DNA of 64,000 nt, from positions 3,782,001-3,846,000 of the forward strand of contig CM035358.1 in NCBI GenBank assembly GCA_020137815.1, in the 5' to 3' direction. The translations under genes and the position numbers were made by a program. The notes beneath the pieces are model-generated. The model was not told the DNA's origin and searched no databases. It worked only from the letters and a program-made list of their open reading frames with translations. Below are positions 1,490-64,000 of this stretch, piece after piece. Source of the stretch: Hormiphora californensis. Its lineage: Eukaryota > Animalia > Ctenophora. Numbering within the stretch: position 1 is the stretch's first letter; each line of letters starts with the position of its first letter.

Positions 1490-2632
1490 AATCCCCCACC
1501 ATACCACCATCACCCCTGGAATCCAGATTAAAATTGTAGTGAAACCCGCGCCCCCACTTGGACACTAAGTACATTGTTACCAATTAAGAGTTGGACTAAT
1601 ATGGGGAGGAGTTGCTGGCGATATATAATAGAACTCTCGTATTATAATAGAACGAACAATTTTTATACACGTTCAGTGTGACAAAACTCCCGAAACAAAA
1701 GTAAACAGTGTTTTTAGTTGTTCTTTCTTCAATAAAAAACTGTAATATCTTGTTAATCTGTTACGTTTTTTAATTTCGTGACCCTTTTAGTTTCTGTAGC
1801 GAATATCTTGAGAACTAAAGAATAAAAAGAGATGGATGAACAGTTAAGAAAGAGAGGGAGAGAAATACAGAGATAGAGAAATACAGAGATATAGAGAGAT
1901 ATAGAGAGAGATAGAAATACAGAGATAGAGATAGTGTAGTTAGTAGTTTCGTTGTCAGTTGCATGCCTGGCAATAGTGTGTTCTTGTCCGAGACAAATAA
2001 AAGCGTGTGTTTGATATGTTTTCTCTTCTTTTTGAGTTTATTTTATGTGAAAGTGATATATAAATAAGAAAGATATTAACTGAGAGGAAGACGTGTGCGA
2101 ACCTCTTTTTATATTTTCCATTTCACTATAATTAGATTCTTTACGAAACAAAGATAGCCGTGTTTTGAGTTGTCAATTGGGTGCACTGATGCGATAAACT
2201 TTGTGAGAGGGCGAGAGGCTTACCTACTTGGAATCACTGTCTGGCACCGCAGACCCGATCTGACCATGTAAACTGGCGCTTGATAAGGTGTCTAAAGCGG
2301 TGCCGGATAGAAAACTCGAAGTTTACTGAAAATTTTTAAAGTGTACCCAATTGTGAATGTCAAAGTTGAAACGCAGAGGATTTTGTTGGGTTGAATAATG
2401 TACAACGGATAGAAAAGGGGATGGGGGTCAAACAATAACACACACTCACACTACAAATCAGTGATAAATAAAATAAACAATCCTCCATCTCAGTAATCAC
2501 TCTCCATCACTCTCTTAAACCTCCTTTTCAAATCACAATTATTAATTATATTGGTATTGATTTCTCGTTTCCATCACAAAATGTCCCATTCTCTCCACAA
2601 ACAGTCTCACGGAATATCTTCATTGCTCCCAT

Positions 2633-3702
2633 TCAGGTGGGTTGTTCCTGGGCTCCCTTTTCCTCTTCCTCGTTCTTGAGAAGGAGCAAGGGCCACATTC
2701 CCAGTATACACCCAATACAGATACCAATACACCGACCATAGAATACCCACCTGATAAAGTGAGTTGGTATTAGTGATTTGGAAATTGGTTCAACACTAGT
2801 TGGATAATCATTAAACAGGGTACTTCTTATATTGTCCCCTAAATGTAATCAACTTCAACTTCAAGGGGCCTAAAATGTGCCCTAAATAACCGCCACTTCT
2901 TCCCCTACCTATGTGCAATTGAAGACTCTCTCTGGACAGCAGTCAGGACACTGGACCTTCCTAGAAACTTTTTCACCGATTTCTCCACAGTTCCTGCGGT
3001 GCCTATTCCCGCCACGTCAGATATTAAGTTACCCATGGCTGCGGCAGCTAGAGTTGACAGACCTGAAGGGGAGGTAGAATGGGGTGAATAATTCGGATAA
3101 ATAGTGGGCTAGTTTATGCCTGTCTTTCGATATCGTTTTCAGTCAGAAACTAAGAGAATATAAAGGAGCTGTGTGTCATAGAACCTACCTAGAGTTGCTC
3201 CCAGTTTCAGGTCAATGTATTCCCCCGCACATAACATGATCGTATTGTCAAGGAATCCGAAACCAATGAAGGGAATCCTGTAGGAACATAAAGTCAATCA
3301 AAATGGAAAGGATCGATGCGAAATATCGGGAATAATCTTGACAAGCATTGTTTATCTATACCCTGCATATGAAGCCTCCAGTGCCAGCAACTTTCGGGTC
3401 ATACTCCCAGCCCCATTTCCATTCCCGTGCTCATTTTGGAGTGCTGCCAAAAGGTATTTCCTCTCACATCTGCTTAGTTCGTCAACAAATGTCTTTGCAG
3501 TATCTTCGTTGGTGATCTCAGGGCGCAACACTGATATACTTCTCCTGAAGAGGAGGGTAGAGGGGGGATTATCCAAACTCTAACACTGGGAAACTTTGTG
3601 GAACACCGCAAGAAAGGTCTAAACAAGCTGATTGTGTTCTTACCTGCTGTTCAGTACGAAAGAAATTCGGGGGCACTTTCTCAGAACATTCCTGCAAATC
3701 AT
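2633..3702 (-). CDS. TMEM65: Transmembrane protein 65 (mitochondrial inner membrane), 5 exons
   Basis: Exons ~3702-3643, 3545-3362, 3278-3190, 3062-2909 and 2750-2633 give MICRNVLRKCPRISF...GIPFIGFGFLDNTIMLCAGEYIDLKLGATLGLSTLAAAAMGNLISDVAGIG...IGCILGMWPL, which are TMEM65 signature motifs. Confidence 0.92.
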
Positions 3703-4088
3703 GAACTATACAGAAGGAAAATAGTTAGTAGTAATCGTCGTGTTGGGAAATAGAAAGAGGTTTCTTGGGGAATGGGGGCGAGACTGGTCGGGCAGTTGAG
3801 TCGCCTGACACTGTTTTAGAATAAAAAGAAAGTATGAAAAATTCAACCGTTGTACGGGGTTCACCGGGTTCGGTAATTGGAATCTTCAAAAGAATGCTCT
3901 TGAACTCTGCCAAGTCAAACCGGGTAGGGCGTTCCAGAATTTATTCCCACGGTCACAGAGTGCGCGCAGGTTCGCGCACACAATACACTCTCAGGGGGCA
4001 AAAACTAGCAATGGCAGATTTTCAACTTCACACACTGAAACGTCAAACGTGTAACAACCACGTACAAAACTGAGACATCTATAAATTA

Positions 4089-4751
4089 CAAAGCCACCTG
4101 CCGACGCTGTGGAGAGGACTACATTGGTGCTACCGGTAGACCCCTCTCAGAAAGGGTCAACGAACATGAGCGCAGCCAACGCCTTGGAAACACGAAGAGC
4201 GCCCTGGGACGACACCTTACTGAGGAGCACCCCGAAGCAGTGACCATGAGGAAGAGGAAGAGGGGCAGACCAGGACAGAGGGAGCGAGAGGAGAGAGAAA
4301 AGGACTTTGAGATTTTCTTTGAGAATTTTGATTTTAGAGTTGTCGGGAGAGGGAGAGACGTTCTTGAGACTTTTTTGAGGGAGAATCTGACAATTCAGCG
4401 GGAACACCCAGCTCTGAATGATTGCCAGACGAATGGTTTCGTGTTCTGATTGGTTCTGATTGGCTCATGTCACAGCCGCTAAACCCAGAGTATGATCCCA
4501 TCCGATGTCAGATTTCAGAGGTGGTGCAACCACTAATTGCTAGAAACAGTTCTGATTAGGATTCGAGTGTCAAGTGTCGGGCTATAAATGTGTGTCACTA
4601 TGAACAGTTTATTTCTTTCACTGATGAGGGCTATTTTACGCCGAAACGTCTGTTTTGCTATTGAAATTTGTTCACCTTTGTAACATCCCGAGTCTTCTAT
4701 GCCTGACCAAACTTCGAACCACGTGAGATCAATACAGGGATCATCCCCTCA
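4089..4751 (+). mobile_element. 5'-truncated Penelope-like retroelement (GIY-YIG endonuclease end plus pLTR-like region)
   Basis: Open frame 4087-4449 reads YKATCRRCGEDYIGATGRPLSERVNEH...E...HPALN. A 14-bp direct repeat ACATCTATAAATTA flanks it at 4075-4088 and 4752-4765. TATAAA is at ~4583 with a hammerhead core downstream. Confidence 0.88.
4601..4674 (+). ncRNA. Minimal type-I hammerhead ribozyme motif
   Basis: CTGATGA (4621-4627), stem II GGC...GCC, then GAAAC-GTC (4643-4650). Flanks TGAACA/TGTTCA and ATTTC/GAAAT can extend stem I. This position is typical for Penelope elements. Confidence 0.7.
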
Positions 4752-5206: not shown

Positions 5207-5703
5207 TCCCACACATACTCTCATCCCCAAGGCTGTAGTAAGAGAGCGACACACCGGAAATGAAAGAGTTAATGTTCTCTAGTTGGTTGGTTAGATTCTT
5301 GAGGTGCTCTCATGGGAAGAAAACTCTCTCTTTCCTTCTAAAAACACATAATAAAGGCGGATTTTTTCATCCAAAAAGTCGAATTTGGTGATATTTACTA
5401 CGCACCACACGTTAACATGGGAGGCACGCAAAAAAACGAGCGCACGAGAGGGGGGGGGGTGAAAATCCGACTTTATAACAAAATATAACAACCCACACAT
5501 TTTTTTCGTTCACAGAAAAACAAAACACCTGCTGTACAAATCGAGAAACAAACAACTAGACACAAAGAGTTTTACAAACACTAAAAACACACAAAATAGG
5601 CGCACTGTAACGGTAACTAGATCTCTTCCTTTTACTCAAAAAACAAATAGAACTAAGTAGGAATCTGTTAGAAAAAGACAAAAGTACAGAAAGTAGAAGG
5701 ATG

Positions 5704-16011
<10,308 letters not shown>

Positions 16012-16210
16012 TCTCTGATTTAGGGAGAAATTTAGGAAATGATAATGTTTCAAAACACGTATATATCGTTGGTTATGGGGAAGAACGCTTCAGTAGTGGC
16101 CAGTGGGGAGAGATTGAAAGACAACAGTGAATCAAGTGAACAAAAAGAGTTAAGTACAGAAATTACACAGTCGAATTAATCCCCCTATATATTTATACTG
16201 GCTGAAAAAA

Positions 16211-16863
16211 TCAATAAAATATTCTCTTTTGAATAACATAAGCGACGGTACAGAGAAACAAAAAGAAGCACAAGTAAGTTAGAATTGTGTCTGTCATGGC
16301 TCGTTGCCCAATCTTTGTTACCAGCCGGTGAGAGCTGACAAGAACTGAAGATAAAGTCCTGTACTCTCCATCTACCTCGTCGACCTCCTGCATGATGAGG
16401 TCGCCAGATTCTTAACAGTTTCCTCTTGTTGACGTACCATTGCAGCAAGTAACTCTGTGTTACGCTTGTAACGTGTTTGTGATATCCTCAGCTACTTTTG
16501 TAACATCTTTCTTTCCTCGCTTTTTTAGCCGACCCTGAAGCCAATAATTCCTCCCTGTCTGCCTTGGCTTTCTTCTCAGTCTGGAACGTTCAGTGCTGCT
16601 CTGATCTGTTTCTGAAGAGTCCCCAAGTTCAGTCACTGTGCAGGATGATGTTGCTGACGTAGGAAGTCTTCAGCCTCCTCGGACTGCTGCTCTACAATCT
16701 TGACATTGAGTATGTTTAATTTGGATCGGATTTGTTGTATCAGGGGAAAGGGAGAGGGACCCTCAGAACCGTTATGGATCTCATCAATCTTCAGGCGAAT
16801 GTTACTCTCGTGCTGGTATATCTGGTGGAGAATCAGTCGTGCATCGTCGCTAACAACATCCAT
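16211..16863 (-). CDS. BNIP1: SEC20/BNIP1 ER SNARE, intronless; about five or more apparent 1-bp frameshifts (sequencing error or pseudogene)
   Basis: Segments in shifting frames are colinear with BNIP1: ARLILHQIYQHESNIRLKIDEI; TLQKQIRAAL; KADREELLASG; KDVTKVAEDITNTLQ; LLAAMVRQQEETVKNLATSS; EYRTLSSVLVSSHRLVTKIGQRAMTDTILTYLCFFLFLCTVAYVIQKRIFY* (Sec20 SNARE plus tail anchor). Confidence 0.82.
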
Positions 16864-16921
16864 CACAGATCAGATCATTATAACTGATATAAAAGGGATT
16901 TAATTAGTGTTGATTTAATAA

Positions 16922-16986
16922 AACAAATAAAATCCATATAACTATTAAATCAACTTGATTTAATAGTTATATGGATTTTATTTGTT
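16922..16986. repeat. Perfect 32-bp inverted repeat with a 1-nt spacer
   Basis: AACAAATAAAATCCATATAACTATTAAATCAA-C-TTGATTTAATAGTTATATGGATTTTATTTGTT. Confidence 0.92.
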
Positions 16987-17074
16987 GATTTTGGTAAAGA
17001 AAACACATGGAGATTGTAACTTTAAATAAGGTTGATATAAAAGTAATAAATTAAGTTACAAAACTACTCAGTCA

Positions 17075-17335
17075 TCATTCCGACACCACACAACATTTTC
17101 TTGCCCCAATATTGTAAAAGCTCAAGCCCCAATCCGCGACTAGAGACGAACACAGACCGGTGATGCTCATATTCGCCTCCTCGCACTCTTCCATTTCTCC
17201 CAGGAGCTGAGCCACACTGGCGGGCAGAGTCTCCCCAATCATGGCGGATAGTCCCCCAGGCAGGACGGTAGAGGTGGGTTGTTTGTGGGACAAACTGACT
17301 GCTATCGCAGAATATTTCATGGTGTTGTTCACACT
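17075..17335 (-). pseudogene. 5'-truncated second copy of ORF102
   Basis: Shares NNTMKYSAIAVSLSHKQP...LVADWG but lacks the N-terminus and acceptor; has a different C-terminus, LSFYNIGARKCCVVSE. Confidence 0.55.
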
Positions 17336-17591
17336 GATAAGCAACAAACAATGAGTTTTCAAAGACTTAAATACAAAACAGGATACAAACAGCTAAAAAA
17401 CATTTCAATTTCATTGTCACTTCTCTCCCTTCTCTCCGTTTAGTTTCTCGTCTGTTTCCTCGAACACCTTCTTCTGCATCTCTGCTATCTCATTATATAT
17501 GGATTTTATTTGTTGATTTTGGTAAAGAAAACACTTGGATATTGTAACTTTAAATAAGGTTGATATAAAAGTAATAAATTAAGTTACAAAA

Positions 17592-17900
17592 CTACTCAGT
17601 CATCATTCCGACACCACACAACATTTTCTTGCCCCAATCAGCGACTAGAGTCGAACACAGACCAGTGATGCTCATATTCGCCTCCTCGCACTCTTCCATC
17701 TCTCCCAGGAGCTGAACCACACTGGCAGGCAGAGTCTCCCCGATCATGGCCGATAGTCCCCCTGGCAGGACGGTAGAGGTGGGTTGTTTATGGGACAAAC
17801 TGACTGCTATCGCAGAATATTTCATGGTGTTGTTCACCACACGGCGGGACAGTTGCCGGCCAGTTGTAGTGGCAGCACGACGGAACGCCCCACTATACAT
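17592..17900 (-). CDS. Unknown 102-aa protein (ORF102) with a mitochondrial-presequence-like N-terminus
   Basis: MYSGAFRRAATTTGRQLSRRVV is Arg-rich with no acidic residues. The ATG is preceded by CTAAC-CTCCCTCTCTCTAG|AC. The duplicate copy keeps nearly the same protein despite substitutions. Confidence 0.6.
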   Translation of the reverse strand: MYSGAFRRAATTTGRQLSRRVVNNTMKYSAIAVSLSHKQPTSTVLPGGLSAMIGETLPASVVQLLGEMEECEEANMSITGLCSTLVADWGKKMLCGVGMMTE

Positions 17901-18037
17901 GTCTAGAGAGAGGGAGGTTAGAAAGTGGATTAGTTGTGTGAAATAAGATTAAACACTGATAAGCAACAAACAATGAGTTTTCAAAGACTTAAATACAAAA
18001 CAGGATACAAACAGCTAAAAAACATTTCAATTTCATG

Positions 18038-18748
18038 TCACTTCTCTCCCTTCTCTCCGTTTAGTTTCTCGTCTGTTTCCTCGAACACCTTCTTCTGCAT
18101 CTTTGCTATCTCATCATCCACCGCCTCAACGGACAGAACCTCCGGAACATAAAACTGCATCATGTTCTCAATACCATTCTTGAGCGTTACTGAAGAACTG
18201 GGACAGCCAGAACAGGATCCTTGGAGGGCAAGTTTTACAATACCATCCTCAAAACTGACGAACCGGATATCACCTCCATCCTCCTGAACAGTCGGTCTGA
18301 TTCGGGTATCCAGTAGCTCCTTGATCATGATTGTAGTTTCATCGTCGTCAGCATTGATAATAGTGTCACTTGATCCAAGGGAAGCATCATCCAAAATAAC
18401 AGGCTGGTTACTGGCGAAGAAATCCATCAGACAGGCGAAAATGTCTGGCTTCAGTAAGTTCCATGCCTGGTCATTGTCGTCCTTAGTTACACTGATAAAA
18501 TCAGTTGCAATGAAAACCCTGGTAACTCCATCAATTCTAAAAAGTTGTCGCGCCAAAGGGGACACTCTACTGCTTTCAATGGAGTTGAAATCGTAAGTTC
18601 CGATGTGATCTAGGACCTGTATTCCCGGTACAAATTTGAGACTGTTCGGGTTTGGAGTAGTTTGCGTCTGTATGAACATATTTCGGACGGGTTGGATGGC
18701 CCATGGTTGTCTGGCTGACTTTTGGAACAGTCGTAGAACACTTCTCAT
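18038..18748 (-). CDS. NFU1: NFU1 iron-sulfur cluster scaffold, mitochondrial, intronless
   Basis: [74 protein letters not shown] (CxxC). Confidence 0.97.
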
Positions 18749-18752
18749 CACT

Positions 18753-19635
18753 AGGGATCCCTAAAAAAGTTCAGTATTTACACAGAGTTTACACAGTCTT
18801 TACTCAGTCGTTACACCCAGAGCGGCGCGTGCTGCGCACAGTGGCTTTTTCCAAGAAAATATTGGATTGTGTGCTGCACAATTGACAAAATTGAGCGCTG
18901 CGGCGAAAAAAGTTTCCGAAAACGCTGCAAATCGAGTGCGAAAGACGCAGTCGTTACACCCAGAGCGGCGCGGGCGCTCTGGGTTAGGGTTATCTATTTG
19001 TGCAACGAAAGTCATACTGGAATGTTCGGGCGTCCAGCATGATGACCAGGGGACTTAAGGGGTTCAGAGAATCACTTGCGCGTAGGCAGCAACCCTGTGG
19101 GCGAGCCGTACGGGCCGATAGTTATACTCCATTTTTTTTCAACTGTTCACCCCCCAAAGTCGTGCGCGGAATTGTTTTGCGCGTTTATCACATGTTAACG
19201 TGTAGCGCGCGCCACCCAAATTCTAATTTTTATTAAATTTCAGTTTTTGGGTGAACAGTTGAAAAAAAATGGACTTTAATAATAGTTTTTTAAAGTTTTT
19301 AAAAGTTAATAAAAGTTAAAAATGCGCGGCACCCTGAAAAGCCGAAAAAAATTAACTTTTTCAGGGTTCCGCGCATTTTTAACTATTTATAACTTTTATT
19401 AACTTTTAAAAACTTTAAAAAACTATTATTAACTATCGGCCCGTACGGCTCGCCCACAGGGTTGCTGCCTGCGCGCATATGATTCTCTGAATCCATTTAG
19501 ACCCCCGGTCCTCATGCTGGACGCCCGAAGTCTCGAAAAGCCAATTCCAAAGATCGATAACCCTACTCTGGGTGTAACGACTGAGTAAAGACTGTGTAAA
19601 CTCTGTGTAAATACTGAACTTTTTTAGGGATCCCT
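18753..19635. mobile_element. ~880-bp non-autonomous TIR element with nested internal inverted repeats
   Basis: ~70-bp TIRs AGGGATCCCTAAAAAAGTTCAGTATTTACACAGAG.... Further IR pairs at ~19028-19125/19430-19527, ~19128-19152/19248-19273 and ~19277-19345/19357-19432. CT flanks both ends. Confidence 0.88.
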
Positions 19636-19855
19636 CTAAACAGTGGCAGTTTGTGACACAGGACCGGTGAAAGAGGGTGAAAACGAAACGAAAAGTCACA
19701 AAAATCACAAACTTTGGGAAGAATTTTTTTGTTTTTTGTTTCAAAACCTGGTAAAGTGCGATGCTTTGGCAGTAACGCGCGAACATTTTGGTTATTGCGA
19801 CGCGCGCGTAGTTTTTCATCACAGAAATAAAATTGCGAAGTTCAAAAATTCAGAT

Positions 19856-20025
19856 TGGCAAACGTTGCTGGCCCCCTGTTCTGCGCCACGCGCAGCGCGG
19901 GATAAGGCAGCGCTTTTCAAAAATTCAGATTTCTCTTTTGAAAATTTCGAATTTTTTTAATTTCTAATTTTCTGTTGAAAAGCGCTGCCTTATCCCGCGC
20001 TGCGGGGGCCAGCAACGTTTGCCAA
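19856..20025. mobile_element. Small palindromic MITE
   Basis: TTGGCAAACGTTGCTGGCCCC...GCAGCGCGGGATAAGGCAGCGCTTTTCAA and its inverse. Confidence 0.75.
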
Positions 20026-20632
20026 AATTTTCTGCCTCTTGGTGTGTCTTGGTGTGTCTTGACGCCCCTGCAGCCAGTTATTTACATCCCTATTCCCTTC
20101 ACATTTCAAAATAATGATTTTATTGCAAACATCGATGTTTTAAGTCAAATATTGCTCTAAAACTAGAAATCGCCAATTGTCAACGGTTTTTGCTTTTGCC
20201 AAGGCGGTGCCACCGTTAACACCCGTTGTTTACAGCTTAGGAGATGTCACAGTTGGTTCAAACAATATTGGCTATTTATTTTCAGTTTTATTTTCCAAAC
20301 GTCACACCACAATATTGCTGCTAAGAGAGAAACACAAGTTAGAATTTTCAATTTAAACACAAAAAACTCTCCAAATTCCGAGGTTAAACTTAAGGGTACA
20401 CCTCGGCAAAATTTTTGTCGAGTGCCCGCTTAGCTCTCCATATGGGGTTGTAGGGCATACCAAGCCGACCTCAAATATGCAATTTTAGCCCTTAACTCGA
20501 ATTCATATTTTTGCTACAGCCCCTCAAAGTTTGACCCTAAAAACAGGTTTTTAAGGTCCCTAAATTTTATTTTTAGGGCTAGAAAGCTGAAAATTTAGGG
20601 ATTCATAGAGGATACCAAGGTGTATAGCTCAA

Positions 20633-23600
20633 ATAAAGCTGAATAAAGCTGAATAAAGCTGAATAAAGCTATGAAAGAAACATCCAATCTCAAACAGGAT
20701 AAATTTCTATCGTGGAAGCTTGACTACGTGGCTGATGATCCAGCTGCTGTCAGTGGGTTATACAACAATCTGGGAAAAGACAAGATCCCACAGGAGCTTC
20801 CAAACGGAAGTTCTTCGAGTGAAACAGCAGAAAACTTTGGCACTTTCTTCAAATCGAAAATCGAGGATATCTACGAGACGATCAGAGTTGAAAACGACAA
20901 TCTGAACCATTGCCAGAACTACCACAAACTGACTACACTGGTGCCACATTTTCATCCTTCGTAAAGTAACTGAAGAGGAATCAGTGCTAAATTCAATCTA
21001 TGGAGAAAAAAGCACTGTGATCTCGATCCTATCCCTACCAGCAAACTCGTAGGTGTTCTCCCGAAGTTACTTCCTTTATCTCTGACATTGTCAACAAAAG
21101 CCTCACAAGAAGGTTAGTTCCTGAACAGCTGAAGCAATCACTGATTCGACCCTCGTTCAAGAAGAAAAGGAAGCCCGGAAGAACTAAATAAAACAGACGG
21201 TAATCCAACTTAGCTTTTATATCCAAGCTAATTGAAAAATGTGCGTCTATACAGCTTACGGAGCACCTTGAGACGAACGAACTGTTTCCAGGAGTTCAAT
21301 CGGCGTACCGGGAAACATCATAGCACCGAGGACACACCTGGTAAAAGTAGTGAATGATCTTCTTTCTAATACAGACACGAAGTCGAAGGCTGGTACTTGT
21401 GTATTGCTAGACCTCAGTGCTGCCTTCGACACGATTAACCATGAATTGTTACTTGGGAAACTGAGGGAGGAATTTATGGCGTTGATGGTACTTGCCTTGA
21501 ATGGTTTGCCTCCCTACCTCAAAGATAGGAAAGCTCTTTGAAAATTTTGATTGATACCTACATCCTTATTTCCCTTAGCCATCAACATCGGAGTTGCCAC
21601 AGGGCTCTTTATACTTGGACCACTGTGTTCATTCTGTACACAAAAGAGCTGGAAAGTATTGCTAGGCACTATGGATGATGGTGAGCTCTATGCTGACGAT
21701 ACTCAGTTGTTGATGTTTCTTTCAGCAACGATTCTCTCCTAGACTCGAGAAGAAACTGCAGGGTGCTTAAACCACATCAAAGCGTGGATGTATCCAAGAA
21801 CTTCCTCGACTCAACCCAGCCCCAAAACTGAATATGCCTGTTTTAAAACAAACATGATCAAACAGAAAACCCTGAAAGCCTTCAAACGATGAGCAACCAT
21901 GATCTACAAAGCACTTACACTAGTAGGAACCTTGGTGTATTCTGGACTCAGAGAGCTCTCCCTATTGGTCACGATCCAGAACCGTAAGGGACGTGTCAAC
22001 TAGCCCTTATGAATCTTGGAAAATCCACAGAATGTTGGGTGTTAATTGAAAAGTCAACTCCGTTACAGTTAATACACAGCAGACTGGAACTACTGTAACC
22101 AGCTCCTTGCTGGTTCTTCTGGCCAAGAAATAGGTCGATTACAGAAGATTCAAAAATCTGCAGCCGTTTCGTTCTTTGGACAACGCCTCTACCAAGGCAA
22201 CCACAAACCTCGCCAACAGCAACAGCTTCATTTTTCCTACCCGTTTCGAGAAAGGGTGCAGTACACAGTTGTGTCTACTGACATACAAAACACTGAATGG
22301 TATAGCCCCACCTACCTATCGAGAGATGATAACACTCCGTCACAACGAAGTTAAAAAGTCTACGAAGGGATGCTGACACAAAACCTACTGACAAGAACTA
22401 TGCCAGATATTGTTCGAGTAAAGGTGCGTTTAGTGTCGCTGCTCCGGGAAATATGGAATAGCTTACCTTCTTCTTTCGGGAAAGCTCATCCATCACATCA
22501 TTCAAATCCAACTGAAAACCCACTTCTTCCGAAAGGCATACGAGTGCTTAAAAAACAATGGTGAAGACAATTTATACTATGGAATTGTGGTAGGAAAGAT
22601 GAGAGAGAGTTGAGGATCCCGAATTAGAGTGTGATACCGCGAAAAGTTAGAGAACGACCAGTACTCTTTTCACTCACTCTTTCTAAACTGTCTTTTTACT
22701 AATTATATTTAATACTTTTCTTTTTATGTGAACGGATCTCCAGAACGCGGTAAAAAAAGAGCCTGGTTAAAAAATAAAAAAAAAAAAAAAGAAAAAGAAA
22801 GGTAAAGCAGAAAAGAGTCCAAAAAAAAAAGAAAAAAAAAAAAAGGAAACAAAAAAGGGGCAAAGAAAAAAGGGGGATATAAATTATAAATGACACCAAA
22901 GTGGGGGTATGGGGTGGAAGGGTTCCAGTGAGGTGTTTGCGCAGTGGAGCATGTTGGGCTTCACTTATAGAAGTGCAGCCCGTATGGTGTAGTGCAGTGG
23001 AGCGTGTTGGGCTTTACTTGATAGAAGTGCAGCCAGTTATGGTGTAGTGCAGTGGAGTGTGTTGGGGTTTACTTATAGAAGTACAGATCAGGTAGGGTGT
23101 GTGGTTTGCAGGGATGTGTGTTTTGGGCTTTTTTACTTATAGATCAGTACGTGTATGGGTTGTGGTGCAGGGAGGTGATGGGCTTTACTTATAGAAAGTA
23201 CAGACCAGTGTGGTGAAGATGAGGCAGCAAACGAGTGATGACGTCTCAGTCTGCGTCGCTGTGGCTCTCCTACAGGAAGTAGTCGGATCATCAGTCCTCA
23301 CCCAGGTGGTATAAGACAGTATCGCTTGTTTAAGGGCTAAAGCCTGGGCTAAAGTATTTATTTCGGATCACTAGATCCAAGAGCTATCTTATCAATCGCA
23401 GTAAGCAAGAGACAGTATTAATATTTCATCATCCGATTTAAATATCGTTTAACTAACAAGACCTCCTTCAGAAAATATCATCTTGTAAAAACATCTGGAA
23501 ATCCTTGGTATAGAATAACCGCTTTTGAAACGAGAGTTAGTGAGACGAAGTCCGCACCAAGGTGATGCAAGTAGTCAAGACCTAACAGAACTCGTGTTGT

Positions 23601-23660
23601 CTTTATAATATGAACAATGAAAAGCGGACAATAAATGTATATTTGTATTTGTATTTGTAT
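20633..23660 (+). mobile_element. 5'-truncated CR1/L2-group LINE with a frameshifted reverse transcriptase
   Basis: RT motifs SNLAFISKLIEK, QSAYR, VLLDLSAAFDTINHELLL and YADDTQL. (ATTTGT)n 3' tail at ~23640-23660; short AAATA duplication at both junctions. Confidence 0.9.
22935..23212 (+). repeat. Degenerate ~58-bp tandem repeat (about 5 units) in the LINE 3' region
   Basis: Recurring GTGTAGTGCAGTGGAG...TTGGGCTTTACTTATAGAAGT. Confidence 0.75.
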
Positions 23661-24734
23661 AAATAGAAATTTTTTGAAATGGAGCTCAATTTTTTGTCTG
23701 AGACTATATTTACTTTTTTTTGACTTGAGGCCATATTTGGACATGTTCCTATGGACCGTTAAGGCTAAAAATTGGATATTTGGTGCTCCTAACAATGTCA
23801 AAGTGCCACAAATTTTCAGGAGGTCCGAATTTGAATGTGGCCTACCGCTTTTTTCGTAAAGACATATTTTAGGGAAACTTAAATGGCTATATCTCAAAAA
23901 CGGTAGGTCCTAGCGATCTAATTTTGTGCATAAAAATCGATGCAGCGGGTCCGATGTTTGGGGGGGTCTTCTCTTAGACATTTTGCTCTAAGTTCTTTAC
24001 CGTTTTTTCAGAAACGTATTTTAAGGTTTGTACATGTTTAGCAGAAGAAATGCTTAGCTAGAGCTAATCTTACCTATTTCTGCTAAAAATGTTCAAACCT
24101 TAAAATAGATTTCTGAAAAAACGGAAGACTTAGAGCAAAATGTCTAAGAGAGACCCCCCCAAAATCGGACCCGCTGAATCATTTAGCACGAAATTAGATC
24201 GCAGGACCTACCGTTTGAGAGATTAGCCATTTTAAGTTTTCCTAAAATATGTGCTTTACAAAAAGAAACCTGTAGCACATTTCAAATTCGGACCTCCTGA
24301 AAATTGTGGCTACTTTGACAATGTGTAGGAGCACAAAATATCCAAATTTTAGCCTAACGGTCCATAGGAAACATGTCCAAATATGGCCTCAAAGTCAAAA
24401 AAAGTAAAATAGTCCAGACAAAAAAATTGAGCTACATTCAAAAAATTTCTATTGAGCTATACACCTTGGTATCCTCTATGAATCCCTAAATTTTCAGCTT
24501 CTAGCCCTAAAAATAAAATTTAGGGACCTTAAAAACCTGTTTTTAGGGTCAAACTTTGAGGGGCTGTAGCAAAAATATGAATTCGAGTAAGGGCTAAAAT
24601 TGCATTATTGAGGTCGGCTTGGTATGCCCTACAACCCCATATGGAGAGCTAAGCGGGCACTCGACAAAAATTTTGGCGAGGTGTACCCTTAAATGATGAT
24701 CCATGGAAGATTAGGGCTTGGTTTATCCTAGTCT

Positions 24735-25360: not shown

Positions 25361-34139
<8,779 letters not shown>

Positions 34140-36569
34140 CCACTCAGTATCTACTGTGCTGTGGTTGAGGCACGGGCCAAGTAACCACTCAGTATCTACC
34201 TATCTGGTGGATAGAACTGCACTCTCAAAGGACGGAGAGAGTGCTCCAGATGTGATCCCCTTTACCCGTATAACACCAAGAGGGACCCCGCCCACCCCTG
34301 ATTCCATCCCTTTAGACTGCATGTGACGGGTTTTAGACTTTTAGAGTGTTTAGACTCTTTCTCTCTTCAAATAATATAGTGTTAAGATTTTGTATATACA
34401 CTTTATCATTGTGTCTCATATGATATGTTGAATATAATCCATCTCTCTCTAATCCCTTCTTTTTCTAGTAATTTAAGTGAGGTCTTGAGGAAAATTCTTT
34501 AAGTGTAAGCGTTTCAGCTTTGATTTAGCACGTGTTGTATTAAAGATATGAGAAGTTTTGATTGAAGTGATTTATTGGTGAAAATGTATCGTTTGCGTGT
34601 TATCTTTCTCTTCTTGTTGGGATATAAGGTGATGTTTTTTTGAGTAAAATATCGCTACAAAGTATAACTTATGTGTCTTTCGTGATATAACGAGTGTGTG
34701 TTTTTCAAACGGATATATGACGAATAGTGTTTCTGTTGCCGGGTGTGTGTGTCTCACTCTGTAGTGTTTCTGTATACCCTATCAAGGTTCCCAACTCCCT
34801 CACCTTTCCACTACTTTAATGGCCTGCTCTAAAGCGTTATTTACAGACGATTTTTTCTTATTTCAAGATTTTGTGTTTCAGTTTGTCCATCTCGGATCGG
34901 CGGGAAAGAGGAGATCAAAACTTGATCTTGAAAACAGGAGTCGGTTCCATGCTTGCGCGTCTTCCGAATGCTAAATTGATGCACTTTCACTTGCCTAAGA
35001 GCAGCGCGCGCAACAAACAACATTATTCGCAACAGCAAGTTGCTTTTCCCAGGCTCACTTTTCCCACTCAAATAAAGCAGAGTACTGAGTAGCGTCAGTG
35101 AGCAGATTCCTTCCTACTATCGATTCATTCCAATTTCTATGCAGCCTTAACACGTGCTATTGGCTCTGTGTGAGTTGTGAATCGAATAGAAAGAGCACTT
35201 GTGAGATACCAGAGAAATCTAGAATTCCTTATCTTTCTTTACACTCGGAGAAACGCCGGCAGACACTCGTATATCGAGACGACACCAGATTCAATTTCAA
35301 CCAGCTCCAAATGCTTGTACTTCGATATAACAAGGCCGGGGATAGATAAGGAGAGAAAAGTGTGCTTTTCATGCATTTTCAACCCACCATTGTTTTCCAA
35401 ACAAACGAACCCAAAAAGGTTTGGGCACGTCACTACCAACAGAAAGGTAGAACCTTTTTCACCCAATCCTTGCTTGTTGATGGGGATCACATTAGCAAGC
35501 AAGATGATGGGGATGGTATTATATCACAACCTGTACAGGGGGGGGGTACACCTAGCACTTGTTTGGGCATGCCCCATGTGGCTTTACGGAGGTACAGATC
35601 CCGAATTCGGTAGTTTTTCACATTCTCCACCGCAGCAATGAAAACACCCCTTTCATCAAAGTACACACATTCATAGTGCCGTGTGTCTCAACAAGTTTTA
35701 CAAGACGTTTCACAGGCTGTCTCTCCCTGTGTTTACAAGAAGCAAGACGTTTCACAGCTGCTGTTTCTCCAGCTGTGTTGTGAAGGGTGAAGACACAAGT
35801 GGGTGTCGATTGGCTGCTGACAAACCAACACAGAGAGCATGTGTTGACGAGTTGTTTACTTGGGATAGAACAAGGTAAAAACGCAGTTTATAACCAGCAA
35901 AATGTAATTAAAAATCAAAGTTGTCCCAATTCCCCCCAATTATCGGGGGGTAATGGGTTATGGGGTTTTATAAAACAATTATATATCGTGTGTCATTATA
36001 CATAACGGGGACCCGCGGCAATACTGACGAATTTCTGTACAAACTTGTTAATTGCACCCTGCACAGTTTTAAATAAACTTTTTTTTGTCAGTTGTGCTAT
36101 AAATCAAGGGTGCCGCGGGTATTCTTTTTTTAACGCTCTATAATCAACTGTTATTTCTCTCTCTATTTTCTCTCTGTCTCATTCCAACTCTCTCTTTTCT
36201 TGATAAAAAGTGATTGTAATTAACGTATAACAGATTTTCATGCAAATAATTTACTATTTTCGGGTCTCTGTCTCTCCTTGCCCCATCACGGTTTAACCTC
36301 CCCACCTTCATATTTGAAAAATAAATATACACAAAAAGTAAAAAACAATCAAAAATCACACACTTCATGCACTTGTGTTACAAAATGAATTGTCATTTGC
36401 TACACACAACAAAGTGTCACAGAGCTCACGTCGTTTACCTAAAAAACAGCTTGTGATTTAGCTCCCAACTAAATCAGTAGTCCCAGCCCCTGCTCATTTC
36501 ACAGTTTCTGTGCCCCTAAATTACTCAGATTGTCACAGTTTCTGTGTCTCCCTAGAGCTCCCCTAAGTT

Positions 36570-56381
<19,812 letters not shown>

Positions 56382-61987: not shown

Positions 61988-63388
61988 TTAATTTATTGCT
62001 CGATCTTTTGTCTCTACTTGAAGAAAGAATGATAACAATGCAGCTGCCGACGACAGCACTGCTAGTCCTAGAATGATGAACCAGAAATAGTCCATACTGA
62101 GGGTGATGGCTGGGATAACTACAAACAACGATGCTATTCGCCCGAAAGAGAAAAAGCATGATAAGAATAGTCCCCTAATACTGGTGTCATAGTATTCGCT
62201 AAGGTAGATTAGAATCACGATAAATACCCCGGCGTTCATGAACCTTACCAAGAACAGGTCCACCATAACTTTTAATCGTCCCCCACAAATCAGCAGTGAA
62301 ATGATACACAGAGTCTCCCCTACTGACCCGATCCTGAGAGAGAGGAGACGGGAAACTAAGGCAGCAATAATAGTAAACACTAGGTTTCCTATTATCTCCC
62401 CTATAGTACTGACACTCAGAGCTAACAGTGCCTCCCCAGAGTAGGTGTGACACTTTTCCGTTTTTGTGACATTAGTTTCGTGACAATATCCCTCGTTAAA
62501 CATCCTAGGTGCACCCCACGCACTGAATGCCCAGACCATGAACGCTAAACATGTGGTAATAAGGAGTGCTACAGAGTCAAATACAAATGCCTTATCACGG
62601 GGTATAGCACTCAGTTCCAGTTCCTGTGGATTTCCAACATCATGTTTTGTCAGCTCGCCCTCAGGTAAATCTCTCCCATTCCTCTCACTGATCACATCCA
62701 GGGATTTCCGGCCGTCTTCAAGTCTGTCACATGCCACCTCATAAAACGGGCTCTCCGGCTGGAAGATGAAAGTTACAGCGGTGATTAAAGCAGGGATAGA
62801 TAGGATCACTAGCACAACTCTCCAGCCAAGTGTTTCTAGGGTGTAGTAACACAGTATAGCACTGATGAAGGAACCGATAGCCCACGCTAGGAATTGATTT
62901 CCAATGTTCCAGGCTCTTGTTGCTGTGTCTGTTGTTTCTGTTGCATACACCGACACAATACACGACATCGTCTCAAAGGCACCCGTTGCTAGAAACCTTA
63001 AAGCTATGAAAGACCACACATTTCCTGCACCGGCCGAGAGAAGAGCGAAGATTCCTCCCATCGCCAGAATTACGATTGCGGGAGTCTTCCGGCCTAATCG
63101 TGTGGTAACATAAGAGCCAATAAAACCTCCGATGATGGCAGCGAATATTGTTGAAATTGGAAGGAGTATCATAACGGTGTCAGTCAGATTCCACTCACAC
63201 CTCAGTTTTGGTAGAATGATACCCATAACCATGATCTCAACCCCCTCAACAAACTGAGCGGCACCGGTTGAAAGGACTATGAAGCCGTTACCCCAACCAA
63301 ATCCCATGTGGTCCAGACCCTGTTGGACTGTGAAGGTTTTAATGGCGGGTGGTGTTGTTGTTGGTGATAGGGATCCATAGTTGGACAT
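61988..63388 (-). CDS. SVOP: SV2-related (SVOP-like) MFS transporter, intronless, 466 aa
   Basis: About 12 TM segments; FTVQQGLDHMGFG, motif A RLGRK, LGWR, PESP, SEYYDTSIRG and C-terminal VETKDR. Confidence 0.82.
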   Translation of the reverse strand: MSNYGSLSPTTTPPAIKTFTVQQGLDHMGFGWGNGFIVLSTGAAQFVEGVEIMVMGIILPKLRCEWNLTDTVMILLPISTIFAAIIGGFIGSYVTTRLGRKTPAIVILAMGGIFALLSAGAGNVWSFIALRFLATGAFETMSCIVSVYATETTDTATRAWNIGNQFLAWAIGSFISAILCYYTLETLGWRVVLVILSIPALITAVTFIFQPESPFYEVACDRLEDGRKSLDVISERNGRDLPEGELTKHDVGNPQELELSAIPRDKAFVFDSVALLITTCLAFMVWAFSAWGAPRMFNEGYCHETNVTKTEKCHTYSGEALLALSVSTIGEIIGNLVFTIIAALVSRLLSLRIGSVGETLCIISLLICGGRLKVMVDLFLVRFMNAGVFIVILIYLSEYYDTSIRGLFLSCFFSFGRIASLFVVIPAITLSMDYFWFIILGLAVLSSAAALLSFFLQVETKDRAIN

Positions 63389-64000
63389 GAGAGCAATTCA
63401 AAACAGAGAGAAATGTTTGGAGACAGAGAGAGAGAGGTAAATAGAGAGAATCATAGATAGAGAACAATTAGAAAAGTCTCCAAATGTAAAAAACGGGCCG
63501 TGGTTTATGATTATTTTATTCAAGGTCACATACTATACGAATGCCAGCAGGGACCTTCTACTAGGATCACTTTTTACATTTCAAGATCCTTAGGATCGTA
63601 AGTTTGGATCAGGAGATGGATTATATCTAACTCCTAACCCACTCTTTAGTTTATATCACATGATGGCTAGGTGATAATGTCGTGAAATGAGCCATGGCCT
63701 CTCTAATCAGGCGACTTTCCCGCAAGTGGCGGCTCCCAAACCTCCCAAAACCCATCGATACCTACTGTGAGGACGACTTCGGGGTCACTTCTGTAAGTTT
63801 AGAAATTCTTCTGGGTCACTTCTGTAAGGTTAGAAATAGCCGTGATAACTAGTCGGGACTTGCAATTTTTGCTATCCATTTTTCAAGGGTTAGATTTGCG
63901 ATTATTTAACCCTCCTCCCCCCTCTCCCAGGTGTTTAAACATGGCTACCCCACGGATCCTAGCTGTTTTACATTCGACCCAGCAACCCGGTTACTAGCTA

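What the first reader, a model, noticed from the sequence alone, without database searches (positions are those of the whole stretch)
15990..18760. Operon-like, probably trans-spliced cluster NFU1 > ORF102 > SEC20/BNIP1 > WDSUB1
Seen: four co-oriented minus-strand genes with very short spacers. NFU1 stop 18038 to ORF102 ATG 17900 is 137 nt; ORF102 left-copy stop (~17064-17075) to SEC20 ATG 16863 is ~200 nt; SEC20 stop 16211 to WDSUB1 ATG 16011 is 199 nt. Each downstream gene has a pyrimidine tract and AG just before its start (CTAAC-CTCCCTCTCTCTAG|acATG; CTAAT-TAAATCCCTTTTATATCAG; TTTCTCCCTAAATCAG|agaATG), and I saw no convincing partner donor in the spacers. Known: nematode and tunicate operons are resolved by SL trans-splicing at such sites, and ctenophores have SL trans-splicing. 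Inference: one polycistronic pre-mRNA encoding organelle housekeeping proteins, possibly extending to TMEM65.
Basis: partly seen in the sequence, partly recalled or inferred. Interest (0 to 1): 0.85.

Follow-up and report, generated by a model that had tools for sequence, protein, structure and literature searches.

The report
Likely comb-jelly four-gene operon
In a comb jelly, four unrelated housekeeping genes sit head to tail only 137-211 bases apart and the second one's messenger RNA carries the animal's spliced leader, so they are likely read as one long RNA and cut apart, an operon layout known from worms, sea squirts and Hydra, although three of the four genes are broken in this assembled copy.

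Summary
Layout confirmed: NFU1 > orphan ORF > SEC20 > WD40/U-box gene (WDSUB1-like), minus strand, stop-to-ATG 137, 211 and 199 nt. RNA contigs from two independent studies begin with the 3' end of the published ctenophore spliced leader (SL), joined exactly at the predicted AG (17904-17903) before the orphan ORF; the leader is not encoded in the window. Trans-splicing is thus shown for one of three downstream genes. Polycistronic transcription is not shown: no contig covers any spacer, gene order in other ctenophores could not be read, and SL sits on at least 56% of reads in a relative, so it does not by itself mark an operon. RNA from other animals is intact where it covers these sites: assembly noise (favoured) or a decayed haplotype. 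TMEM65 lies 2 kb away; the extension is unsupported. Verdict: likely SL-resolved operon (0.6), a known kind; my searches found no paper on ctenophore operons. The scan noted a similar cluster elsewhere in this genome (e1-10649461).

The parts
18038..18748 (-). NFU1, single exon, 236 aa, intact; first gene of the cluster
   Evidence: Pfam Nfu_N 1.2e-30, NifU 1.7e-28; 79-81% identical to Bolinopsis and Mnemiopsis NFU1, 63-66% to three other hits tested
18753..19635 (.). 883-bp non-coding element with perfect 70-bp terminal inverted repeats, inserted 4 nt before the NFU1 ATG; AG stands on both flanks, so the insertion likely duplicated the acceptor AG
   Evidence: self-BLAST 18753-18822 vs 19566-19635 100%, inner arms 19025-19124 vs 19430-19529 91%; flanks printed
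17905..18037 (-). Spacer 1 (NFU1 3' UTR plus branch point and pyrimidine tract); no AATAAA-type hexamer, no donor-like GT
17903..17904 (-). Trans-splice acceptor AG of the orphan ORF, shown to take the spliced leader
   Evidence: loose 5' ends of 22 nt (X1) and 19 nt (X2) at 17904 equal the 3' end of the leader in PMC8527503 (checked)
17592..17900 (-). Orphan ORF, copy 1: acceptor and ATG present, 23-nt deletion between direct repeats shifts the C-terminus
   Evidence: alignment of copies; P0001 90% identical
16968..17496 (-). Tandem copy 2: last 26 codons of NFU1, part of spacer 1, then the ORF without acceptor and ATG but with the natural C-terminus (stop 17077-17075)
   Evidence: X1 contig joins 17791 to 17285, skipping 505 nt inside a 47-nt identical overlap; P0001 ends like copy 2
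16922..16986 (.). Perfect 65-nt palindrome overlapping the AATAAA of spacer 2 and the duplication breakpoint; has the anatomy of a template-switch insertion of about 45 nt (inference)
   Evidence: 31-bp stem, z -12.6; 32-nt arms exact, 11-nt repeat on both sides
16884..16885 (-). Predicted trans-splice acceptor of SEC20 (not covered by close RNA)
   Evidence: top 1.8% of AG sites
16211..16863 (-). SEC20/BNIP1, single exon; start and stop in place, about 6 one- or two-base frameshifts in 16644-16391, no stop left once frames are followed
   Evidence: Pfam Sec20; frameshift-aware alignment to P0138; X3 contig has 337 letters where the window has 345
16017..16210 (-). Spacer 3; holds TATAAATA at 16197, either a variant poly(A) signal or a TATA-like box
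16015..16016 (-). Predicted trans-splice acceptor of WDSUB1 (not covered by close RNA)
   Evidence: top 1.1% of AG sites
5703..16011 (-). WD40/U-box gene (WDSUB1-like), 11 exons traced; exons 15750-15596, 15531-15359 and 10456-10327 are each one base short
   Evidence: exon frames; Pfam WD40, U-box; X1 contig carries the extra base at two of the three sites
2631..3702 (-). TMEM65, 5 exons, intact; next same-strand gene, 2 kb downstream, probably not part of the tight cluster
   Evidence: Pfam TMEM65; frames and distance

Best explanation
Four head-to-tail comb-jelly genes, of which the second receives the spliced leader, likely form one operon transcribed from a promoter predicted to lie upstream of NFU1. 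Shown: order, strand, spacing, and leader addition at 17903. Inferred: RNA polymerase II runs through NFU1, the orphan ORF, SEC20 and WDSUB1; each upstream mRNA is cleaved and polyadenylated inside the 135-200-nt spacer, and the downstream part is rescued by splicing the capped 44-nt leader onto the spacer's AG, as in Ciona, Hydra and chaetognath operons, with the ordinary leader rather than an operon-specific one. The first link (NFU1 to ORF) is the best supported, the last (SEC20 to WDSUB1) the weakest. The lesions in this copy are more likely local assembly noise and a false or recent tandem duplication (about 0.65) than a decayed haplotype; living alleles carry a single intact ORF of about 106 aa with a predicted mitochondrial presequence.
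For: Leader at the predicted AG in 2 of 2 covering runs from two studies, matching PMC8527503 and absent from the window (0 matches; best ungapped match 17 of 24). Only 135 nt lie between the NFU1 stop and that AG, and they must also hold NFU1's 3' end. Three short spacers in a row, each with a strong acceptor and no donor. The cluster meets the operational rule used for chaetognaths (under 250 bp, at least one gene with leader; PMC12460157). Hints from X3 (about 80% alike): its SEC20 contig has 170 letters before 16758, 45 more than the distance to the predicted acceptor (leader 44 nt), and its WDSUB1 contig has 142 letters before 15701, which would start at the predicted AG; letters not visible, no indels assumed. 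The ORF is a real gene: 8 synonymous to 2 replacement differences between copies, P = 0.0004.
Against: No laid contig (30, 10) covers any spacer or joins two genes. The leader is on at least 56% of Hormiphora long reads and isolated genes here have the same acceptor-before-ATG layout, so leader plus acceptor does not single out operons. Spacer U content (0.41-0.45) lies within the range of five control 3' ends (0.25-0.48). A TATA-like word lies in spacer 3. Nine frameshifts fall in SEC20 and WDSUB1 (2013 coding nt) and none in NFU1, TMEM65 and the nested GPCR (2642 nt), P = 0.0005 under even spread, which plain random error does not explain.
Confidence: 0.6

Rival explanations
1. Separate transcription units in a compact region: each gene, or at least SEC20 and WDSUB1, has its own promoter in the spacer or inside the upstream gene, and the leader simply replaces a short outron. 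A hybrid operon with internal promoters is a variant of this.
For: Leader addition is near-universal in this group; TMEM65 and two single-exon genes have acceptors before ATG without a close neighbour; TATAAATA in spacer 3; the four proteins share no pathway (own knowledge).
Against: Spacer 1 leaves 135 nt for a 3' UTR, a promoter, an outron and a branch point with its tract; three such spacers in a row; in Hydra a comparable spacer had no promoter activity (PMC3273482).
Confidence: 0.3
2. The operon is real, but this assembled copy is a dead or dying haplotype or duplicate: the element at the NFU1 acceptor, the duplication with deletions at short repeats, the fold-back and the frameshifts are true mutations.
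For: Lesions cluster in the downstream genes and spare a GPCR nested between them; deletions end in short direct repeats and the palindrome looks like a template switch, which base-calling noise does not usually make (own knowledge).
Against: All small lesions are one or two bases, most of them lengthening or shortening a run of two or three like bases by my reading; no substitution has made a stop; listed NFU1 differences to X1 and X2 are 8 synonymous of 9 (78 rows of that table were not shown); SEC20 is an essential SNARE (own knowledge), so a long-lived null needs a second copy, which I could not look for (no genome held).
Confidence: 0.25
3. The AGs are ordinary cis acceptors fed by distant 5' UTR exons, or the cluster is an artefact of assembly.
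For: The region is visibly mis-assembled or rearranged; nested genes are common in ctenophores and occur in this window.
Against: At 17903 the upstream exon is the leader itself; spacers 1 and 3 lie outside the duplication junction.
Confidence: 0.05

Closest known systems
Ctenophore spliced-leader trans-splicing (Hormiphora californensis, PMC8527503; passages read)
   Same: Same leader over the 24 and 21 terminal bases seen, joined at an AG
   Different: That paper reports no operons (0 occurrences of 'operon' or 'polycistronic' in the main text; supplements not readable)
Hydra RFC140-flp bicistronic operon (PMC3273482; passages read)
   Same: Non-bilaterian animal; unrelated genes; short T-rich spacer with pyrimidine tract and AG; downstream gene takes a leader; orphan-like gene in downstream position
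   Different: Hydra case was proven with reporters (no promoter in the spacer, AG needed); here four genes, nothing tested in vivo
Chaetognath and tunicate operons with no operon-specific leader (PMC12460157; Ciona and Oikopleura in PMC7986045; passages read)
   Same: General leader used; housekeeping genes; distance under 250 bp
   Different: Ciona spacers are about 1 bp and Oikopleura about 30 bp; those sets are genome-wide, this is one locus
Nematode SL2 operons (C. elegans; PMC7986045, passages read)
   Same: Spacer of about 100-200 nt holding a 3' end and a trans-splice acceptor
   Different: No sign of a dedicated SL2-type leader; U enrichment of the spacers is not above controls

Membership tests
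SL-resolved eukaryotic operon | Adjacent same-strand genes with a short intercistronic distance (under 250 bp in PMC12460157) | tested here: met
   137, 211, 199 nt stop to ATG
SL-resolved eukaryotic operon | Downstream gene receives a spliced leader: orphan ORF | tested here: met
   2 of 2 covering runs
SL-resolved eukaryotic operon | Downstream genes receive a spliced leader: SEC20 and WDSUB1 | tested here: inconclusive
   no cover of either 5' end in X1 or X2; length hints only from X3
SL-resolved eukaryotic operon | Polycistronic precursor spanning a spacer | tested here: inconclusive
   0 contigs over any spacer at low depth; contigs of mature RNA are not expected to hold precursors
SL-resolved eukaryotic operon | One upstream promoter, none in the spacers | not testable with these tools
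   needs CAGE, chromatin or reporter data
SL-resolved eukaryotic operon | Gene order kept in relatives | tested here: inconclusive
Nematode SL2-type operon | Operon-specific leader | tested here: inconclusive
   the 3' half seen equals the general Hormiphora leader; the 5' half was not seen
Nematode SL2-type operon | U-rich element in the spacer | tested here: inconclusive
   T 0.41-0.45 against 0.25-0.48 in five control 3' ends
Ctenophore SL trans-splicing | mRNA 5' end equals the leader, ending in AATTTGAG at a 3' splice site | tested here: met
Ctenophore SL trans-splicing | Leader not encoded next to the gene | tested here: met
   0 matches in the 64-kb window; best 17 of 24; the rest of the chromosome was not available

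The most novel reading that the evidence does not exclude
Probability: 0.15. Interest if true: 0.75.

Novelty: new member of a known kind. Interest (0 to 1): 0.5.

Why it matters
Operons resolved by leader splicing are documented in nematodes, tunicates, Hydra and chaetognaths, and ctenophore leaders are known, but six searches found no paper describing a ctenophore operon. A proven case would extend animal operons to the earliest-branching lineage, bear on whether leader splicing and operons are ancestral or convergent, warn that ctenophore gene models may fuse neighbours, and offer a 135-nt spacer as a two-gene transgene linker, as was done in Hydra. It also places a lineage-restricted, selected small protein, probably mitochondrial, directly behind NFU1.

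Tried and rejected
No whole genome held, so no search for second copies or leader genes. Orphan ORF: no Pfam family, one homologue only, no usable Atlas hit, no PDB match below E 1. SEC20 N-terminal piece found no homologue. Two metagenome scans found no related locus. Synteny by accession failed: NFU1 accessions for Bolinopsis and Mnemiopsis were obtained but the SEC20 cluster has none; supplements of PMC11797021, PMC10876535, PMC6278862, PMC12221973, PMC13231562 and PMC11184263 held none of the terms (three files were unreadable scans). No fused SEC20-WD40 or NFU1-ORF protein among the fetched hits. Lack of RNA cover over spacers and over the 5' ends of NFU1, SEC20 and WDSUB1 is no evidence either way. 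Absence of AATAAA in spacer 1 is uninformative: 0 of 5 control 3' regions have it. Spacers 1 and 3 fold no better than shuffles. A joint in X2 from 18253 to 17633 vanished on the narrower stretch and was dropped as spurious. A fourth WDSUB1 frameshift that I suspected near 10045 by eye was not real. The score printed for the pre-insertion NFU1 AG is one base off and was not used. The lay-out hits at 18249-18329 and 19128-19278 come from other organisms or repeats and were not counted.

Full report
Organism. No genome was held. NFU1 is 79-81% identical to the Bolinopsis and Mnemiopsis proteins and 63-66% to three other hits tested, and the leader found below is that of Hormiphora californensis, so the window is from a ctenophore, most likely a pleurobrachiid (inference).

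Layout. Pfam confirms NFU1 and Sec20 and WD40 plus U-box for the fourth gene; the name WDSUB1 rests on that order of domains and a SAM-like stretch read by eye. On a matrix from 14 cis acceptors of this window the three AGs rank in the top 0.4%, 1.8% and 1.1% of 9242 AG sites (the matrix is small and its own left-out scores run from -6.4 to 12.2). No GT in the spacers reaches the weakest of 12 true donors. TMEM65 follows WDSUB1 after 1996 nt.

RNA. Three runs were offered: X1 and X2, metatranscriptomes of two studies holding 13% and 11% of the words, and X3, about 80% alike. All are contigs. In X1 a 411-nt contig and in X2 a 231-nt contig align from 17904 onward and carry 22 and 19 unmatched letters in front. 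These letters plus the genomic AG equal the last 24 and 21 bases of the leader published in PMC8527503 (checked), differ from the genomic tract upstream of 17904, and are absent from the window. Trans-splicing at the predicted site is therefore shown for the orphan ORF in 2 of 2 runs that cover it. Nothing from X1 or X2 covers the 5' ends of NFU1, SEC20 or WDSUB1, or any spacer. X3's SEC20 contig is 45 letters longer at its 5' end than the distance to the predicted acceptor, and its WDSUB1 contig would begin at the predicted AG; both are length arguments across species and count as hints only.

What the leader does not prove. In Hormiphora 56% of long reads carry it, as a lower bound. In this window TMEM65 has an equally placed acceptor, two single-exon genes have weaker ones and one has none. 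The operon reading thus rests on spacing: 135 nt between the NFU1 stop and a working trans-splice site, and two more spacers of about 190 nt. By the operational rule used for chaetognaths this is a validated operon; by the experimental standard of the Hydra case it is untested. U-richness and the lack of AATAAA do not discriminate, and spacer 3 holds a TATA-like word.

The orphan ORF. It lies in a tandem duplication (18117-17497 and 17496-16968). Copy 1 has the acceptor and ATG but lacks 23 nt near the end; copy 2 lacks acceptor and ATG. X1's contig runs from the copy-1 start into the copy-2 end, skipping 505 nt inside identical sequence, and the single homologue P0001 (107 aa) has the same make-up, so the natural state is one gene of about 106 aa. 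The copies differ by 8 synonymous and 2 replacement changes in 66 codons (P = 0.0004), as two functional alleles would. The protein has no acidic residue before position 55 and 5-6 basic ones in the first 30, which fits a mitochondrial presequence (inference); no family was found. My best guess is a small mitochondrial protein co-expressed with NFU1.

Damage. SEC20 aligns end to end with P0138 only through about six frameshifts in 16644-16391; X3's contig length fits an open frame (337 against 345 letters). Three WDSUB1 exons are one base short, and X1 has the missing base at two of them (table 4 and the loose end at 15532). An 883-bp element with 70-bp terminal inverted repeats sits 4 nt before the NFU1 ATG, and a perfect 65-nt palindrome marks the duplication breakpoint. 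The small lesions look like long-read consensus errors, but they avoid NFU1, TMEM65 and the nested GPCR (P = 0.0005), so a decayed haplotype stays open (about 0.3 of the two). Either way the functional locus is the one seen in RNA of other animals, and spacers 1 and 3 are not touched by the duplication junction.

Synteny could not be read.

Literature. Seen as passages: PMC8527503 (supplements not readable), PMC7986045, PMC3273482, PMC12460157, PMC12221973 (42, no occurrence of operon or trans-splicing terms), PMC11184263 (55, none), PMC6005172 (58, one reference title), PMC10282587, PMC12220107. Seen as search listing plus supplement look-up only: PMC11797021, PMC10876535, PMC6278862, PMC13231562. 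Not held and not seen: Derelle et al. 2010 and the Pleurobrachia genome paper; either, or unseen supplements, may already mention ctenophore operons. Searches found no such description; most subscription papers are outside the library.

Earlier scan notes. e1-10649461 reports another operon-like cluster in this genome with leaders on each gene; it agrees with my reading, was seen after I had formed it, and I did not test it.

Verdict. Observation partly confirmed; trans-splicing shown for one gene; operon likely (0.6); new member of a known kind; interest 0.5.

Noticed in passing
window 12968-14293 (+): Single-exon rhodopsin-family GPCR (Pfam 7tm_1) nested on the opposite strand in WDSUB1 intron 4, with a repetitive Gly/Asn/His tail; intact.
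   Followed up: partly
window 20390-24692: About 4.3-kb element bounded by 243-bp inverted repeats (98%), holding broken reverse-transcriptase-like fragments (label from recall); lies between NFU1 and the divergent + strand gene, in the region where the cluster's promoter would be.
   Followed up: no
window 19855-20025 and 14554-14670: Two further palindromic elements.
   Followed up: no
window 20322: Strong branch point, pyrimidine tract and AG on the minus strand about 1.6 kb upstream of NFU1 with no evident ORF behind it; could be an alternative acceptor or a 5' UTR exon.
   Followed up: no
window 8303-9313 (+): 336-codon ORF resembling LINE ORF1 (from recall; no Pfam hit above cut-off) inside a WDSUB1 intron, without a following ORF2.
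   Followed up: partly
window 7407-7859 (-): 150-codon open frame inside a WDSUB1 intron, same strand, unexplained.
   Followed up: no
window 4039-4449 (+): 136-codon fragment resembling a GIY-YIG endonuclease of Penelope-like elements (from recall; no Pfam hit) in the 2-kb gap between WDSUB1 and TMEM65; the gap may once have been shorter.
   Followed up: partly
window 41964-43517 (-): 517-codon single-exon coiled-coil ORF without a Pfam family, nested in an intron of a receptor tyrosine kinase gene (kinase exons at about 36.6-45.7 kb, read by eye).
   Followed up: partly
window about 25400-34300 (+): Multi-exon bZIP gene with a transmembrane stretch, ATF6/CREB3-like (from recall), head to head with NFU1.
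   Followed up: no
window 61988-63397 (-): Single-exon MFS transporter; the only control gene with no acceptor-like AG within 90 nt of its first ATG.
   Followed up: partly
window 6963-7163; 52514-52613: Tandem array of a roughly 18-19-nt unit in a WDSUB1 intron; a 100-N scaffold gap.
   Followed up: no
run X3: Offered under 'same species label' yet only about 80% identical to the window in coding sequence, so a species label may cover two species.
   Followed up: no
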